A stretch of 64,000 nucleotides of DNA from positions 128,001 to 192,000 of the forward strand of contig CAWEXU010000031.1 of the NCBI GenBank assembly GCA_963813075.1, given 5' to 3'. The DNA is from Methanotrichaceae archaeon. GTDB lineage: Archaea > Halobacteriota > Methanosarcinia > Methanotrichales > Methanotrichaceae. The position numbers and the translations under genes are program-made. Positions 15,507-29,060 of this stretch are shown piece after piece (positions within the stretch are counted from its first letter, which is position 1; each line of letters begins with the position of its first letter). Below the pieces are notes generated by a model that saw nothing but the letters and a program-made list of their open reading frames with translations, made no database searches and was not told where the DNA came from.

Positions 15507-15601
15507 TATAAATATTAAAGAAATCCTTCTAAATAATATCAGATTAGGCGGGATTACTCGATAAAAAAATAGCTGAAATTCCCATGTGGTGGTGTATCTT
15601 A

Positions 15602-16997
15602 ATGAAACGGACAAATTGGATATTGCTGGTCGCCTTTTTGGGGCTGGTTTTTGGCCAGATGGGCTCCGCCCTGAAATATGAGGAGCATTGTTTTATGTTC
15701 GAAAATAGTATCCCTTCTATCCAAATCGCATCATTTCCCCAGTTCGATCCGAACCTGGGTACTTTGACAAGGGTTAAAGTGACTGTGGATGCTTCGGCTT
15801 GTCAATCCTTTGCCATTGATGCCGAAGACTTTTGGTCCGCCCATACAATTGTTCATCTTGACACGACAGTATCGGCTGGAGAGCAATTTGCCCTGGTCCC
15901 ATTGGAAATATGGCGCAATGAATTTGATTCATACAATGACTTTGTATGCGGTAATGATAGCGATGAATTTATCTACGACGATCCTGCTGCTCTCGCCGAC
16001 TGGACTGGCTCAGGCAATGTGGACTTTATAACCCAGGCAGTCGATGACACAATAATAGATGCATCCGGTTCCGTCGATGCCAGAATTAGCAGCGATGCCG
16101 GTGAGACTATCTGCGTCGCCTATGAATACATTCCATTGCTTTGCATCAATGGCTCGAAGATAAATGACTGCACTGGAGAGGGAATTCCTGGCTGGGAGGT
16201 CTGCCTGATCAAACCTGATGGCGAAATGGTCTGCACCACGACCGATGAGAGCGGCGATTACTCGTTCTGCGAACTGGGGTCTGGAGACTATACAGTCTGC
16301 GAAGAAACCAGAGATGGCTGGTTGCCAAAGGGTCCGATCTGCATAGATGTGACCCTTGTGGATGAGAGTGCGGAAGGGGTCGAATTCCTTAACGAGCCGC
16401 TATTTTGCATAAGTGGCCACAAATATAACAGCAAGACCGATGCTGGCGTCTCTGGCTGGCTGATTACCCTCAAGGACGATAGTGGTGCCGTGCTCGATCA
16501 AAAACAGACCGGTACAGGGGGCTACTATGAGTTTTGCGGACTGGAGAGCGGTGACTATACTGTCTGCGAAGAGCTTAAATCCGGCTGGAAGCGGGTCGGA
16601 CCGGAATGCATAGATGTGACACTGGAATGCGCGAACTCTGAGGACAACGACTTCGAGAATAAGCCCGGCCCCAATCCCCCCTGCAGAAATGGGTGCCCGT
16701 GGTTCATCAAAAATGAGCTGTACACCGCCAGTTGCCAGGAGGTTAAGGAGGTCGATGCTAAGCAAAGGAATCCTGGCAAATGACCCGGCAGGCTCAATAG
16801 TAGCTGATCCTGAGTCGATAACCATCGACCCCAAGTACGGCACTATTGAGGTCCATGAGGATGGATCTTTTGTATACGACCCGGCTGGAGCTGCAGGATT
16901 AAATCCAGGTGCTTATGTGGTATTCAAGTACAACGCTAACAACGGAAGATGTGATGCAAAGTATCCTGGTATTGCTAAGATCCAGATCAGATGTTGA
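15602..16997 (+). CDS. Secreted surface protein paralog 1: choice-of-anchor-E-like domain, 2 SdrD-B-like domains and conserved C-terminal Ig-like domain (frameshift near 16765)
   Basis: Signal peptide MKRTNWILLVAFLGLVFGQ; FDPNLGTLTRV; TTDESGDYSFCELGSGDYTVCEE repeats; ends GIAKIQIRC. Confidence 0.85.
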
Positions 16998-25159: not shown

Positions 25160-25413
25160 TAGGAACCTATCACATCAATACCAAGAGGGTTATAAACTCT
25201 TCAGCCTTAAGACCGGTTGAAGTGGACCTTTTCTTTTCTTTTGTATAAATTGATTGGCTGATTTTTAGTAGCCCGTGATTTCGTAATTTACTTAAGCTTA
25301 AAATGTACTAATAATTAAAATATAAATATTTTTTGTTAAATTTACATTATCCTAAATTCTTAGATGTAAGTAATAATTTTTAAGAACTAAAATAAGAATG
25401 AAAAATACAATGA

Positions 25414-25432
25414 TTATAAATAGCTTTAGCTT
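25414..25432 (+). promoter_or_regulatory. Conserved TATA element (copy 2)
   Basis: TTATAAATAGCTTTAGCTT, followed ~30 nt later by TCCTTC as in the other copies. Confidence 0.6.
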
Positions 25433-25461
25433 AGATGTATATAAAGTGTCCTTCCTCGGAA

Positions 25462-25680
25462 TGGACGGGTGGAGCAGGCTCAATCAAACTGGTCATTTGT
25501 ATTGAGCATTCACTGGCTGTAGTAGAAATTGCAATGAGGGCCTTAAATTAATGCAAAAGATTGGCATACATCCAATAAAAGGAGGGCTAAAATTCCCCGA
25601 TCCCCAGGCATATCACCTAGCCCCTCGTCCAGTTTTAAGGCCTCCATTGCATTCTGGCCAGACGCCATCTATTTGATGGT
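25462..25680 (+). ncRNA. Candidate structured cis-regulatory leader RNA, copy A (not recognised as a known family)
   Basis: Homologous to 27631-27855, with multiple stems supported by compensatory changes; see findings. Confidence 0.7.
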
Positions 25681-25844
25681 TGATTGAAATGAAAAAAAGA
25701 TAGGCTCAATGAAAAGGAAGATAATAAAGAAGCATGCTGGAGGATATATGGATATTCCTAATGTTTCGGCTTTAGCATATAGGTGTTCTTCGAATCCGGG
25801 ATGTGCATCAGATTCATACAAGAGCCTAGCCTTTACCAGATGAG

Positions 25845-27417
25845 GTGATTAATTTGAAAATAAGAATATTATTGGCGGCTGTTGTTCTAATAGGTCTACT
25901 TTTTAGCCTACCTGCATCAGCCCAGAATGCGCTGTGCGTATGTGATGACCCTCAACCAACCCCTGCAAAAGAGTACAAGATACCCATGGCGAGAAATATA
26001 GATACCCTAATCGGTGTTGAGAAATTCAATTCAAGCCTGGGATGTCTTCAAGAAGTTAGATTGACGGCAAAATCTTGCGGTTATATATGGGCTGAAGTTG
26101 ACAACGAAGATAATTTATCCCAAGAGTGGGAATACGTTGCAACATCAGGAATCAGTGTTGTTCTGCCAGAGAGCCTGGGAGAAACACATTGTCAATTTGG
26201 AACAGTCGATGGTCCTGAAACAATACCTACAGGAGCAGATGATCCTTCTGAGCTGCCACCAGGAGATGTATATAATCCAGATTATGAAGGTCCAGATTAC
26301 AGCAGAACTGATTACGGCACTAGAACAAACCCCACCTGTTGTGAACCTGAAGAAGGAAATGGTATTTTCATATTAGATTCATCAGCAGCTCTGGAACTAT
26401 TCAGTGGCACTGGCCTTCCGGGAGATACGGTTAATGTTTTAGTTCAAACAAGTGGTTCATCTGGGTTGACTCCAGGACAGAGTGCAAATGTAGGGTACCA
26501 GAGCTTTTCCGAAATGGACGCAACGATTACTGTCGAGTATGTATACTGCCCACCATCGCTTGCATGCATCAATGGCTCCAAGGTAGGCTGCGATAACGAA
26601 CCTCTTTCTGGCTGGACGATTACCCTGACCAAGCCTGATGGTTCCACAGCCACCGACGTGACCGATGACAACGGCGAATACTCATTCTGCGACCTCCCTG
26701 CAGGCAGCTATAAAGTCTGCGAAGAGACCAGACCTGGATGGTATCCCGTCGGACAGACCTAGCTATGACATAATCTTGGATGACGTTGATAAAGTCGAGG
26801 TGCCTCCCTTCAAGAACACGCAGCACTTCTGCATCAGCGGCTACAAGTACAACGTAACTAACAACGCCGAAGAACCACTTGAAGGCTGGACGATTACCCT
26901 TACCAAGCCTGATGGTTCCACAGTCATCGATACCACAGATGCCAACGGCTACTATGAGTTCTGCGATCTGGCCAATGGTCAGTATAAGGTCTCTGAAGAG
27001 CTGAAGCCAGAATGGATAGCTAAATCTCCAGCCTCCGTTAATGTTGTGCTGTATTGCGAAGATGAATCCGTTGACTTCAGAAATGCGAAACAGCCTAATC
27101 TGGTCTGCGTATGTCCGTTCTTCATCAGGAACGAGCTGTATGGCGCCAGCATGCAAAGAGGTAAAAGTGGTCGATGCCAGCAAAGGAGTCATTTCCAATG
27201 ATCCCCAGGCTCTGTGGTGCTCAATCCGGAATCAATAACCATTGATCCAAAATACGGCACACTCTTCGTCGAAGAGGATGGATCCTTTGTCTATGATCCA
27301 ACAGTTGCCACTGGACGCCTTTATTCTGGCATGTATGTGATGTTCAAGTACAACGCCAACAACGGGCTCTGTGATTCCGTATATCCAGGAATCGCCAAGA
27401 TCCAGCTCAGATGCTGA
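25845..27417 (+). CDS. Secreted surface protein paralog 2 (choice-of-anchor-E-like, 2 SdrD-B-like, conserved C-terminal domain; several frameshifts)
   Basis: Signal peptide; FNSSLGCLQEVRLTA; TDDNGEYSFCDLPAGSYKVCEE; ends GIAKIQLRC. Confidence 0.85.
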
Positions 27418-27580
27418 GACGGATCGAACATCAAATTTTTATTTTTTTAATTTTTAATTATTTTTACAGGTTAAGCTCTTCTACTCCCAGATTCTTCAAT
27501 CGACATGTGAAAGAAAAGAACATAAGAGGCCCTTTCGCTGACGTTTTTGCCGCAAAATAAGCGAGCAGAAAGCCAATGAC

Positions 27581-27598
27581 TTTAAATAGCTTAAGCTT
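27581..27598 (+). promoter_or_regulatory. Conserved TATA box plus AGCTTAAGCT palindrome (copy 3)
   Basis: TTTAAATAGCTTAAGCTT, identical to 15489-15506. Confidence 0.65.
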
Positions 27599-27630
27599 AA
27601 TACATATTATAAGGGCATCCTTCTCTGAAA

Positions 27631-27855
27631 CCGGACGGGTGTGAAGCAAGCTCAATCAAACTGGTCATTTGCATTGAGCGTTCCCTGGCTATGGCAAATT
27701 GTGATGAGGATCTTAAATGAAATCAGATTATCGGCAAAGTGATTCGATAAAAGGATGGCCGGACTTCCCCAATCCTCGGTTTTCATCATTTGGTCCCTCG
27801 CCCGGATTTAAGGTCCGCATCGCATTCAAGCCAGGAACCATCCAAAATGGTGGTG
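27631..27855 (+). ncRNA. Candidate structured cis-regulatory leader RNA, copy B
   Basis: Fills the space between the TATA box and the GGTGGTG RBS of paralog 3; covaries with copy A. Confidence 0.7.
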
Positions 27856-27863
27856 TTCTTGAA

Positions 27864-29060
27864 ATGAAACCGATAAAATGGATATTACTGGTTGCCTTTT
27901 TAGGGCTGGTTTTTGGCCAGATGGCCTCAGCCCTGGAAACTGAGCAGTATTGTGCTGTGTTCGATAACAAGAGTACTGATTGGGTCCAAACTAAAACAGT
28001 TCCCCAATTCGATCCCAGTCTGGGAACTCTGACCGAGGTCAGATTGACGGCAAACGCTTGCGGCTATCAGCTATTTCAACTGGATAGCGAAGATACCGCA
28101 GCGCAGTGTTGGACAGTCAGAACCTCCGGTGTGCTTACCACGCCTATGCCCAATGGAGATGTATTAACCCTCAACCTCCCGCCAGATCAACCAGAGAGAG
28201 TCCGCGAATTCTGTCTGGATGCTGACTCCGATGATGAGACAGACTTTATTGGAGACGACTCATACAGAGACTTTATTTCGGATTGCACTGATGACGAGAT
28301 GCAATTCTTCGGTGCCGACCTGGCAGATTGGATTGGCCCGGGCACTGTGAGCTTTACGACGACTGCAGACGCCACTACAATCGTAGATGGACCGGGCAGC
28401 TTCGATCAGAGCGTCCGCACCAATGCCGAGGAGACAATCTGCGTAGTCTATGTATATGAGCCGACAAAGCTGTGTATCGATGGCTACAAGTTCAACGGCT
28501 CAACCGATGAGGGTCTTGAAGGCTGGACAATTCAGCTGAAGGATGCATCCGGAGCGGTTATTAAAGAAGCGACGACCGATATAGACGGCTACTATAAGTT
28601 CTGTGATCTGGCCCCAGGCACCTACACAGTATGCGAGGTCACAAAGCCCAACTGGACACCCATTACGCCTACCTGCGTTCCTGTGGAGCTTATCGACCAG
28701 GATGAGACTGTAAACTTCAGAAATATAATTAAGCAAAAACCGCCATGCGGAACTGGATGCCCGTTCTTTATCAAGAATGAGCTGTACACCGCCAGCTGCA
28801 ATGAGGTAAAAGTGGTCGATGCCAGCAAAGGAATCCTGGCCAATGATCTTAAAGGTTCAATAGTGCTTGATCCCGAGTCAATAACCATCGATCCCAAGTA
28901 CGGATCTATTGAGGTCTATGAGGATGGAGCCTTCGTCTATGATCCGACGGGAGCTACGGGGCTTTATTCCGGCGTCTATGTGATATTCAAGTACAACGCT
29001 AACAACGGATTCTGTGATGCCAAGTATTTGGGTATTGCCAAGATCCAGATCAGATGCTGA
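27864..29060 (+). CDS. Secreted surface protein paralog 3 (choice-of-anchor-E-like, 1 SdrD-B-like, conserved C-terminal domain)
   Basis: Start chosen by the RBS and by the signal peptide MKPIKWILLVAFLGLVFGQ matching paralog 1; FDPSLGTLTEV; ends GIAKIQIRC; frame intact. Confidence 0.9.
   Translation: MKPIKWILLVAFLGLVFGQMASALETEQYCAVFDNKSTDWVQTKTVPQFDPSLGTLTEVRLTANACGYQLFQLDSEDTAAQCWTVRTSGVLTTPMPNGDVLTLNLPPDQPERVREFCLDADSDDETDFIGDDSYRDFISDCTDDEMQFFGADLADWIGPGTVSFTTTADATTIVDGPGSFDQSVRTNAEETICVVYVYEPTKLCIDGYKFNGSTDEGLEGWTIQLKDASGAVIKEATTDIDGYYKFCDLAPGTYTVCEVTKPNWTPITPTCVPVELIDQDETVNFRNIIKQKPPCGTGCPFFIKNELYTASCNEVKVVDASKGILANDLKGSIVLDPESITIDPKYGSIEVYEDGAFVYDPTGATGLYSGVYVIFKYNANNGFCDAKYLGIAKIQIRC

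What the first reader, a model, noticed from the sequence alone, without database searches (positions are those of the whole stretch)
25462..27855. Candidate undescribed structured leader RNA with compensatory covariation in front of paralogous surface-protein genes
Seen: two diverged ~210-nt copies (A 25462-25680, B 27631-27855), each just downstream of a conserved TATA box. Paired segments are kept through substitutions. (1) GCTCAAT-CAAA/TTTG-ATTGAGC hairpin in both. (2) CTGGCT/GGCCAG in A versus CTGGCT/AGCCAG in B. (3) TGCAATG/CATTGCA versus TGTGATG/CATCGCA. (4) GGGCCTTAAA/TTTAAGGCCT versus GGATCTTAAAT/ATTTAAGGTCC. (5) ATTGG/CCAAT versus TTATCGG/TCGATAA. (6) A further stem enclosing a conserved TTCCCC(G/A)ATCC loop. 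Non-Watson-Crick pairs are mostly G-U on the + strand, so the mRNA strand is the folding one. Knowledge: I cannot match it to TPP, cobalamin, FMN, SAM, fluoride, T-box or group II intron consensus, and few riboswitches are known in archaea. Inference: a new multi-stem cis-regulatory RNA controlling cell-surface proteins.
Basis: partly seen in the sequence, partly recalled or inferred. Interest (0 to 1): 0.9.

Follow-up and report, generated by a model that had tools for sequence, protein, structure and literature searches.

The report
Conserved leader RNA before surface-protein genes
A transcribed stretch of about 240 bases in front of a few related cell-surface protein genes of the methanogen Methanothrix is conserved, carries one perfectly invariant hairpin and a long stem, and matches no known RNA family, so it is a plausible but unproven new regulatory RNA.

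Summary
The two copies are real: A at 25447-25695 and B at 27617-27869, about 73% identical. Each starts about 25 nt after a conserved archaeal TATA box and ends at an ATG. No Rfam family matches. A covariance model and a metagenome scan found 18 distinct copies, all in Methanothrix (5 of 105 family genomes) or in sludge-type metagenomes. In 17 of 18 a choice-of-anchor-E/SdrD-like surface-protein gene follows on the same strand, so the element is not MITE-like. Metatranscriptome contigs from 4 studies cover both leaders.

A 30-nt hairpin (P1) is invariant in 15 of 15 subfamily-1 copies. A long irregular helix (P2-P4) recurs in all of them. Support for pairing is mixed:
- Consensus fold against column shuffles: z -5.8 to -8.3.
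- Cognate arms pair better than swapped arms: p 0.027.
- Substitutions keep pairs more often than expected: z 2.3.
- Pair-shuffle control: not significant.
- Double changes: about p 0.06.
- Single-sequence folds: not unusual.
- Inner stems P5-P7: unsupported.

Outside P1 the leader is only slightly more conserved than the neighbouring uORF segment. Paralogues exist that lack P1 and both arms.

Verdict: a genuine, undescribed, narrowly distributed 5' leader. It is probably a structured cis-acting RNA (about 45%). A riboswitch is not shown.

The parts
25414..25422 (+). TATA box of copy A (TTATAAATA). The expected TSS is near 25444-25447.
   Evidence: Read. The same box at the same distance is present in 13 of 13 copies with upstream sequence. 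The TSS is inferred from the usual archaeal spacing and has not been mapped.
25447..25695 (+). Leader copy A, from the 5' hairpin to the ATG at 25689.
   Evidence: CM R1 213 bits, full model. RNA contigs cover 25463-25657, 25478-25623 and 25496-25692 in 3 runs of 3 studies.
25448..25466 (+). P0, the 5'-terminal hairpin GTCC...GGAC.
   Evidence: By reading the printed sequences I find a TCC/GGA-type hairpin at the 5' end of copies with that end and of the short form. It hardly varies and the alignment is poor here (68% of cells paired), so there is no covariation evidence.
25478..25507 (+). P1 of copy A: an 11-bp hairpin with a one-base bulge and loop CTGGTCA.
   Evidence: Invariant except for the bulged base in 15 of 15 subfamily-1 copies. 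It occurs nowhere else in the genome at up to 3 mismatches.
25513..25547 (+). 5' arm of the long helix in A: P2 CTGGCT, P3 TGCAATG, P4 GGGCCTTAAA.
25560..25623 (+). Interior of A. It holds P5 (ATTGG/CCAAT), the conserved ATAAAAGGAGGG and TTCCCCGATCC blocks, and stem 6 (GGGCTA/TAGCCC).
   Evidence: The conserved blocks are seen. The stems are not supported by the other copies (z 0.83 once P5-P7 are added). Different copies fold the interior differently.
25634..25661 (+). 3' arm of the long helix in A: TTTAAGGCCT, CATTGCA, GGCCAG.
25664..25680 (+). P7 hairpin of A (GCCATC/GATGGT). Its 3' side is the Shine-Dalgarno-like GGTGGTG of the other copies.
   Evidence: In 15 copies the stem carries uncompensated mismatches: the closing pair is paired in only 7 of 15 and two other pairs are broken in 2 to 3 copies each.
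25689..25853 (+). Segment 2, the uORF region between leader A and the main start. In A the first ORF stops after 4 codons; a second ATG at 25709 opens a 44-codon ORF that ends at 25843, inside the SD.
25854..26762 (+). Surface-protein gene A: TTG start after GAGGTGAT, then signal peptide, choice-of-anchor E domain and SdrD_B/SpaA domain. The gene is broken further downstream.
27582..27589 (+). TATA box of copy B (TTTAAATA). The expected TSS is near 27612.
   Evidence: The TSS is inferred.
27617..27869 (+). Leader copy B.
   Evidence: CM R1 218 bits. RNA contigs cover 27620-27779 and 27661-27976; the second bridges into the coding sequence.
27650..27679 (+). P1 of copy B.
27685..27718 (+). 5' arm of the long helix in B: CTGGCT, TGTGATG, GGATCTTAAAT.
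27806..27834 (+). 3' arm of the long helix in B: ATTTAAGGTCC, CATCGCA, AGCCAG.
27837..27854 (+). P7 hairpin of B: ACCATC/GGTGGT, with the SD-like sequence in the 3' side.
27864..29060 (+). Surface-protein gene B. It starts at the ATG directly behind the leader: 398 aa with signal peptide, choice-of-anchor E, SdrD_B/SpaA and a C-terminal domain.
15522..15608 (+). Short-form leader of a paralogue. It keeps the promoter, the 5' end, part of the interior and GGTGGTG + ATG. It lacks P1 and both arms.
   Evidence: The same form is found in G062.

Best explanation
The element is the 5' untranslated leader of the mRNAs of a small clade of paralogous Methanothrix surface-protein genes (signal peptide, choice-of-anchor E domain, SdrD-B-like domain).

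Transcription starts about 25 nt after a conserved TATA box. The first ~240 nt are proposed to fold into four parts: a 5'-terminal hairpin (P0), an invariant hairpin (P1), a long irregular helix (P2-P4) that closes a ~95-nt interior, and a last hairpin (P7) that holds the Shine-Dalgarno-like GGUGGUG a few bases before the AUG.

I propose that it acts in cis after transcription. It would set mRNA stability and/or initiation at the AUG directly behind it. P1 would be the recognition site for a trans-acting factor (protein or RNA), and the long helix would be the scaffold.

In the long gene form this AUG opens a ~50-codon uORF that ends at or within a base of the main SD/UUG start. Control of the first AUG could then pass to the main gene by translational coupling.

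Shown: the copies, their promoter, their fixed position and orientation, their presence in RNA libraries, the invariance of P1, and the recurring long-range complementarity. Inferred: the TSS, the fold in vivo, every regulatory step, and the factor.
For: Position and orientation. In 17 of 18 copies a homologue of the window's gene B follows on the same strand. A TATA box sits at a fixed distance in 13 of 13 copies with upstream sequence.

Expression. Metatranscriptome contigs of 4 runs from 4 studies cover leader A and/or leader B. One contig (27661-27976) runs from leader B into the coding sequence.

Constraint.
- P1 is invariant over 29 of 30 positions in 15 of 15 subfamily-1 copies, while the rest of the leader is about 63% identical between lineages.
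- The leader is 68-82% identical between lineages, against 58-70% for the first 450 nt of the genes.
- The proteins are only 28-35% identical to B in the long-form copies.

Structure.
- P1 and the long helix appear in the MFE folds of A, B and 5 further subfamily-1 copies.
- Consensus fold -64.6 kcal/mol against -38.6 +/- 4.5 for conservation-preserving column shuffles (z -5.8, 0 of 200 as low). SCI is 1.07.
- Cognate 5' and 3' arms pair better than swapped arms: -32.8 against -30.9 +/- 1.0 kcal/mol, p 0.027 for 9 lineages.
- In P2-P4, 23 of 41 single substitutions keep the pair against 17.0 expected (z 2.3). 10 of 10 changes on an unpaired state restore pairing.
- Series such as C-G / U-G / U-A and A-U / G-U / G-C occur at single positions.
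- By my reading of the alignment and the fold of G047, the divergent subfamily 2 (G047, G087) keeps a long-range helix with a U-A to C-G change in P3.

uORF. The uORF frame has 10 stops against 33 expected over 11 copies (0 of 500 shuffles as few), without codon periodicity.
Against: - The pair-shuffle control is flat: 86.6% of cells paired against 86.4% (207 of 500 shuffles as high), and covariation score 0.125 against 0.123.
- Double changes are only marginal: 37 of 500 and 60 of 1000.
- Single-sequence MFE is not unusual: z -0.9 and -0.6.
- The inner stems P5-P7 get no support: z 0.83 when they are included. P7 has uncompensated mismatches in several copies.
- The reverse strand scores almost as well: SCI 1.01, event test z 3.4. 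A-C mismatches are not rare: 13 cells against 32 G-U.
- Some copies have lost parts of the helix. L027 lost P3; G046b and L026 lost most of P2.
- Without P1 the leader is only slightly more conserved than the adjacent segment 2: 63% against 58%.
- Paralogues with the same promoter carry a short leader without P1 and without both arms.
- 20 other paralogue upstream regions have no leader at all.
- P1 never varies, so it gives no evidence on whether it acts as RNA or as DNA.
- The parsimony-based tests use few, related sequences and a structure chosen on two of them.
Confidence: 0.45

Rival explanations
1. The leader is inherited baggage. It was copied along with the promoter and signal peptide when the genes duplicated. 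It may be partly a fossil of an older upstream choice-of-anchor E gene. Only sequence-level signals are under selection: the promoter, P1 as a DNA operator or RNA sequence tag, and the SD/start. The long helix would be an old inverted repeat that decays slowly and does nothing.
For: - Outside P1 the leader is barely more conserved than segment 2: 63% against 58%.
- The pair-shuffle control is flat.
- Some copies have broken helices.
- Short-form paralogues lack P1 and both arms.
- The 3' end of segment 2 resembles the C-terminus (ICVTYTYEPGG) of a stand-alone choice-of-anchor E protein that sits in front of another paralogue. The match falls at the same place in 10 of 11 long copies, best E 3e-4. 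The 3' arm of the G047 leader gives a weak match, E 0.069.
- The signal peptides are also conserved while the mature proteins diverge. The contrast with the gene may therefore reflect fast-evolving exposed protein parts.
Against: - The arm-swap test (p 0.027), the excess of pair-keeping substitutions (z 2.3) and the 10 of 10 restorations are not expected from neutral decay.
- The consensus fold lies far below the shuffles.
- By my reading, a long-range helix persists in subfamily 2 at 60-67% identity.
- The leader HMM finds no significant similarity in 7 paralogue sequences (best E 0.43).
Confidence: 0.3
2. The element is a metabolite- or ion-sensing riboswitch. The interior, closed by the long helix, would be the aptamer. 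P7 with the SD would be the expression platform.
For: - A multi-stem architecture with conserved unpaired blocks (ATAAAAGGAKGG, TTCCCCRATCC) inside a closing helix.
- An SD-like sequence sits in the last hairpin just before the AUG.
- No known family matches.
Against: - The interior stems are not supported, and copies fold the interior differently.
- P7 mismatches are uncompensated.
- The genes are surface proteins with no link to a metabolite.
- The element is confined to 5 of 105 family genomes.
- Short-form paralogues keep part of the interior but not the closing helix.
Confidence: 0.1
3. The element is a separate small RNA gene with its own promoter. The surface-protein gene would be transcribed independently.
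For: - A TATA box lies right in front of the element.
- Several RNA contigs end inside or at the end of the leader. Contig ends are not transcript ends.
Against: - One RNA contig runs from leader B 112 nt into the gene.
- By reading, I see no second TATA-like box and no oligo-T run between the leader and the ATG. In B the ATG follows within 10 nt of P7.
- The element always sits in the sense orientation directly in front of the same gene family.
Confidence: 0.05
4. The element is a MITE-like mobile repeat with terminal inverted repeats.
For: The two arms form a long inverted repeat.
Against: - Only 2 copies exist in the genome.
- All copies sit in one orientation before one gene family.
- The short form differs from the long form by two separate blocks around a retained interior, not by one insertion (by reading the sequence).
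Confidence: 0.02

Closest known systems
Long stabilising 5' UTRs of S-layer protein mRNAs, e.g. Lactobacillus acidophilus slpA (passages of the review PMC3666127)
   Same: A long structured leader in front of an abundant secreted surface protein, with a hairpin at or near the 5' end. The effect is expected on mRNA life-time and yield rather than on sensing a metabolite.
   Different: There is no sequence or structural homology. This leader is longer, has an invariant internal hairpin and a ~25-bp long-range helix, belongs to an archaeon and serves a paralogous gene family. Stabilisation has not been tested.
Long 5' UTRs of methanogen mRNAs, e.g. Methanolobus psychrophilus and Methanosarcina mazei (abstract and passages of PMC5378194)
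   Same: Leaders over 150 nt are common in related methanogens (24% of mRNAs in M. psychrophilus). They are thought to act post-transcriptionally, and some are reported to stabilise transcripts.
   Different: Those are described genome-wide by length. They are not defined as a conserved sequence/structure family shared by paralogues and species.
Riboswitches and protein-binding mRNA leaders (ribosomal-protein leaders) as catalogued in Rfam
   Same: A cis-acting structured 5' leader with conserved unpaired blocks, and an SD-like sequence in the last hairpin.
   Different: No Rfam model matches. There is no ligand, no metabolic gene context, and covariation is only marginal.
Conserved 5' regions of surface-protein multigene families, e.g. 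Mycoplasma vlp/vsp genes (recalled, not checked in any call)
   Same: Promoter, leader and signal peptide stay alike while the exposed protein part diverges strongly between paralogues.
   Different: Those systems use the conserved region for phase or antigenic variation by recombination or repeat slippage. No sign of that was looked for or seen here, and the copies are only 60-80% alike.

Membership tests
Any Rfam 15 family | A match to a curated covariance model at its gathering score | tested here: not met
   0 matches in the 64-kb window. At E up to 10 in 25300-28000 there were 4 weak snoRNA/sRNA-type hits, none on the element.
Riboswitch | A conserved aptamer whose helices covary significantly | tested here: inconclusive
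   P2-P4: arm swap p 0.027 and event test z 2.3. The pair shuffle is not significant. The inner stems are unsupported.
Riboswitch | Specific binding of a small ligand | not testable with these tools
   This needs in-line probing, SHAPE or ITC.
Riboswitch | An expression platform (terminator, or SD sequestration that alternates with the aptamer) | tested here: inconclusive
   The SD-like GGTGGTG lies in the 3' side of P7 in A and B. The stem has uncompensated mismatches in several copies. By reading, I see no conserved oligo-T run.
Riboswitch | Association with genes of one metabolite's pathway or transport | tested here: not met
   The downstream genes are choice-of-anchor E / SdrD_B surface proteins.
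MITE / mobile repeat | Many copies in unrelated contexts and in both orientations | tested here: not met
   2 copies in the genome. In 17 of 18 copies the same gene family follows on the same strand.
Stabilising 5' UTR of surface-protein mRNAs | A stem-loop at the very 5' end of the transcript | tested here: inconclusive
   The P0 hairpin starts within a few bases of the TSS predicted from the TATA box. The TSS is not mapped. RNA contigs begin at 25463 and 27620.
Stabilising 5' UTR of surface-protein mRNAs | A longer mRNA half-life that depends on the leader | not testable with these tools
   This needs decay measurements with and without the leader.
uORF / translational coupling | An upstream ORF kept open that ends at the main start | tested here: met
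   Frame-0 stops: 10 against 33 expected over 11 copies, with 7 of 11 having none. Most uORFs end in GGTGATTTGATTTGA at or one base before the TTG start. Coupling itself has not been tested.
Independent sRNA gene | Its own 3' end, and a separate promoter for the downstream gene | tested here: not met
   A contig spans 27661-27976 across the leader/gene border. By reading, I see no second TATA-like box.

The most novel reading that the evidence does not exclude
The invariant hairpin P1 and the long helix form a new archaeal sensor leader. It would respond to a protein, an RNA or a small ligand, and it would gate initiation at the AUG directly behind it. In the long gene form it would pass that decision to the surface-protein gene through a sequence-indifferent uORF that ends on the main start. 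This would be a regulatory RNA class made from, or next to, the fossil of an older gene copy.
Probability: 0.15. Interest if true: 0.8.

Novelty: new member of a known kind. Interest (0 to 1): 0.45.

Why it matters
Very few cis-regulatory RNAs are known in archaea. Methanothrix is one of the main acetate-consuming methanogens of digesters and wetlands, and it has no genetic system.

A conserved, transcribed leader with a 30-nt invariant hairpin in front of secreted adhesin-like proteins gives a concrete handle on how these cells control their surface, which bears on filament, sheath and granule formation. It also offers a compact element that can be tested in vitro or in Methanosarcina reporters.

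If only P1 matters, it is still a sharply defined binding site whose partner could be fished out.

Tried and rejected
- **Rfam.** Searched at gathering score and at E up to 10. Nothing fell on the element.
- **Search for more copies.**
  - The own genome has only the 2.
  - BLAST over 105 family genomes hit 3 genomes, G000 included.
  - CM R1 over the same genomes hit 5 genomes.
  - CM R2 over 41 genus genomes added only the short forms, the segment 2 of G062 and 4 weak hits. I read three of these (G083, G042, G052) and judged them unrelated SD+ATG contexts.
  - The degenerate P1 pattern in genome contigs gave 18 loci. Only the 2 Methanotrichaceae ones match the model strongly; the one other locus above threshold is a chance hit at 11-12 bits.
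- **Upstream regions of 20 other choice-of-anchor E paralogues.** No leader; best score 7.3 bits.
- **Coding reading of the leader.** Frame-breaking indels between copies argue against it. The 27717 ATG ORF through leader B is taken as chance.
- **uORF as a conserved small protein.** No homologue was found in the protein collection among proteins of 26-84 aa. There is no codon periodicity: 20, 24 and 27 variable sites of 59, 59 and 58.
- **Segment 2 as a degenerate copy of the leader's 3' half.** Only 1 of 11 copies (G062) reaches significance with the leader HMM. R2 also hits it, at E 0.0017. I keep this as a hint only.
- **Leader as a fossil of a paralogue's coding sequence.** nhmmer against 7 paralogue sequences gave a best E of 0.43.
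- **RNA coverage.** The four runs show no contig over 25300-25400 or over 27421-27521, and next to none over 27522-27622. Leader B has a higher contig depth than the gene in one run. Contigs cannot show absence, ends or levels, so neither point is used as evidence.
- **Earlier findings of this scan.** Nothing was on record.
- **Literature.** Four full-text searches listed no paper on a Methanothrix leader of this kind. Supplements were not opened.
Full report
**What is there**

The window holds two homologous stretches on the + strand, A at 25447-25695 and B at 27617-27869. They are about 73% identical.

Each begins about 25 nt after an archaeal TATA box: TTATAAATA at 25414-25422 and TTTAAATA at 27582-27589. 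Each ends at an ATG, at 25689 and 27864.

B runs straight into a 398-aa protein with a signal peptide, a choice-of-anchor E domain (NF033208, E 9e-22) and an SdrD_B/SpaA prealbumin-like domain.

In A, about 165 nt (segment 2) lie between that ATG and the real start, a TTG at 25854 behind GAGGTGAT. That start opens a paralogous gene which is broken further downstream.

**Known families**

Rfam 15 has no match at gathering score anywhere in the window. It has none on the element at E up to 10. Four full-text searches listed no paper on such a leader. The scan's own notes held nothing.

**Relatives**

- The genome has only these two copies.
- A covariance model built from six copies found matches in 5 of 105 genomes of the family, all in one genus.
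- G046 has three copies in tandem and G062 has one. G047 and G087 each have a divergent copy at 34 bits (subfamily 2).
- Record titles name the organisms as Methanothrix / Methanotrichaceae MAGs.
- A 20-mer of P1 pulled 13 loci from metagenomes.
- In all there are 21 same-strand model matches, 18 of them distinct sequences.
- In 17 of 18 a homologue of protein B follows on the same strand. The 18th is cut by the contig end.
- All 13 copies with upstream sequence have the TATA box at the same distance.

The element is therefore part of a gene unit, not a scattered repeat.

It is not a general feature of the protein family. 57 of 59 genomes of the genus have relatives of protein B, with 24 matches in this genome alone. 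Yet 20 upstream regions of other paralogues have no leader; the best score is 7.3 bits.

One paralogue in the window (leader 15522-15608) and its counterpart in G062 carry a short form. It keeps the promoter, the first ~31 nt, part of the interior and GGTGGTG + ATG. It lacks P1 and both arms of the long helix.

**Expression**

Contigs from four metatranscriptome runs of four studies (sludge, wastewater, bioreactor) lie on the leaders:
- Leader A: 25463-25657, 25478-25623 and 25496-25692.
- Leader B: 27620-27779 and 27661-27976.

The last contig crosses the leader/gene border. Contigs cannot give ends, strand or level, and DNA carry-over cannot be excluded.

**Anatomy**

- P0: a hairpin at the presumed 5' end.
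- P1: GCTCAATCAAA-CTGGTCA-TTTG(N)ATTGAGC.
- P2-P4: a long irregular helix made of P2 CTGGC/GCCAG, P3 TGYRATG/CATYRCA and P4 GRYCTTAAA/TTTAAGGYC. It closes about 95 nt.
- Interior: holds the conserved blocks ATAAAAGGAKGG and TTCCCCRATCC.
- P7: a last hairpin, ACCATC/GGTGGT, whose 3' side looks like a Shine-Dalgarno sequence 7-10 nt before the ATG.

Stem 6 is weaker in B.

**Is it constrained?**

P1 is identical in 15 of 15 subfamily-1 copies except for the bulged base. It occurs nowhere else in the genome. This is the clearest sign of purifying selection.

The leader as a whole is 68-82% identical between lineages, against 58-70% for the first 450 nt of the genes. The proteins are only 28-35% identical to B in the long-form copies.

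Without P1, however, the leader is only a little more conserved than segment 2: 63% against 58%, higher in 39 of 49 pairs. The signal peptides are conserved too. Part of the contrast may therefore come from fast-evolving exposed protein parts.

**Is it structured?**

In favour:
- P1 and the long helix come out of the MFE folds of A, B and five other subfamily-1 copies.
- The consensus fold of 11 copies is -64.6 kcal/mol. Column shuffles that keep conservation classes give -38.6 +/- 4.5 (z -5.8, 0 of 200 as low). Free shuffles give -31.8 +/- 4.0 (z -8.3). SCI is 1.07.
- The 5' arm of a copy pairs better with its own 3' arm than with another copy's. The means are -32.8 and -30.9 +/- 1.0 kcal/mol, p 0.027 with the G046 clade collapsed to one unit, and p 0.0008 uncollapsed.
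- When substitutions are redistributed on the tree among the variable columns, pairing in P2-P4 drops to 0.64 +/- 0.06 against 0.876 observed (0 of 1000). This also reflects plain conservation of those columns.
- Conditional on where substitutions fell, 23 of 41 in P2-P4 kept the pair against 17.0 expected (z 2.3). 10 of 10 changes on unpaired states restored a pair.
- By my reading of the alignment and the G047 fold, subfamily 2 keeps a long-range helix with a U-A to C-G exchange in P3.

Against:
- The shuffle of 3' partners is flat: 86.6% of cells paired against 86.4%. Double-change cells are 12 against 8.5, reached by 37 of 500 shuffles.
- The tree null for double changes is reached in 60 of 1000 runs.
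- Single-sequence z-scores are -0.9 and -0.6.
- Adding P5-P7 lowers the event test to z 0.83.
- P7 carries uncompensated mismatches.
- L027 has lost P3. G046b and L026 have lost most of P2.
- The strand is not settled by these tests. The reverse complement gives SCI 1.01 and event z 3.4. G-U outnumber A-C cells 32 to 13, but A-C are present.

The sense strand is favoured by the promoter and gene orientation.

**The segment behind the leader**

In 11 long-form copies the ATG behind the leader opens a uORF.
- Its frame holds 10 stops against 33 expected (0 of 500 shuffles as few), and 7 of 11 copies have none.
- Indels shift its frame between copies, and there is no codon periodicity.
- No homologue was found among proteins of 26-84 aa.
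- Most uORFs stop in GGTGATTTGATTTGA, at or one base before the TTG start.

The 3' end of segment 2 resembles the C-terminus (ICVTYTYEPGG) of a stand-alone choice-of-anchor E protein that precedes another paralogue on contig C5. The match falls at the same place in 10 of 11 long copies (best E 3e-4). The 3' arm of the G047 leader gives a weak match, E 0.069.

The segment 2 of G062 also matches the leader's own 3' half. The leader HMM finds nothing significant in paralogue genes.

My reading, as inference: these 5' regions were built by tandem duplication and decay of gene copies. What remains is either still used or still decaying.

**Verdict**

- Best explanation (0.45): a structured cis-acting leader that sets mRNA stability and/or initiation at the AUG behind it, with P1 as a factor-binding hairpin and P2-P4 as a scaffold.
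- Main rival (0.3): only sequence-level signals matter (the promoter, P1 as a DNA or RNA site, the SD), and the helix is an inherited inverted repeat.
- A ligand-sensing riboswitch is possible (0.1), but nothing specific supports it.
- Closest analogues: the stabilising long 5' UTRs of S-layer mRNAs (PMC3666127, passages) and the long leaders common in methanogens (PMC5378194, abstract and passages).

Noticed in passing
window 25854-27417: Surface-protein gene A is split into three ORFs: 25854-26762, 26665-27201 and 27214-27417. There is a frame change near 26665-26762 and an in-frame stop at 27199-27201. RNA contigs of 3 runs, which differ from the window at several other bases, lack one base at 27150/27151 and carry an extra T after 27204. 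That would read past the stop. The cause is either strain variation, an assembly error or a pseudogene in this MAG.
   Followed up: partly
window 25689-25853; loci L003-L006, L016-L021, L024, L026, L027: A uORF of about 45-57 codons follows the leader in the long gene form. It is kept open (10 stops against 33 expected) without amino-acid conservation. It ends in a motif (GGTGATTTGATTTGA) that has a TGA in all three frames, right at the main TTG start.
   Followed up: partly
L058 (G000:C5:160800-161700) compared with segment 2 of the long copies: A stand-alone choice-of-anchor E protein of about 215 aa ends ...ICVTYTYEPGGSG* just before another paralogue. The same peptide/nucleotide motif (TATGAGCCAGG) sits at the end of segment 2 and, weakly, in the 3' arm of the G047 leader. 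This suggests the 5' regions are fossils of upstream gene copies.
   Followed up: partly
window 15522-15608 and G062:C182 (L063): A short-form leader with the same promoter in front of a paralogue whose ATG lies at about 15603. P1 and both arms of the long helix are missing together, while part of the interior and the SD/ATG remain.
   Followed up: partly
G046:C2:120898-128004 (L004-L006, L007, L012, L014): Three leader-bearing genes stand in tandem within about 7 kb. By my reading of the alignment they are close to identical (92% for the one pair I measured, G046a against G046c). This points to recent duplication or concerted evolution.
   Followed up: no
window 27717-27863: An ATG at 27717 is in frame with gene B through the whole 3' part of the leader. 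The ORF list therefore gives 447 aa instead of 398. Gene callers may mis-place this start.
   Followed up: partly
window 25494-25499 and 25687-25692; same in B: The most conserved part of P1 across both subfamilies (CATTTG) is complementary to the start-codon region (AAATG). Pairing is possible only if P1 opens. This could not be tested because neither side varies.
   Followed up: no
whole genome G000: Protein B has 24 matching places in this 2.7-Mb genome, and up to 53 in related genomes. Many are repeated SdrD_B-like modules, so this is a large and fast-evolving surface-protein family.
   Followed up: no
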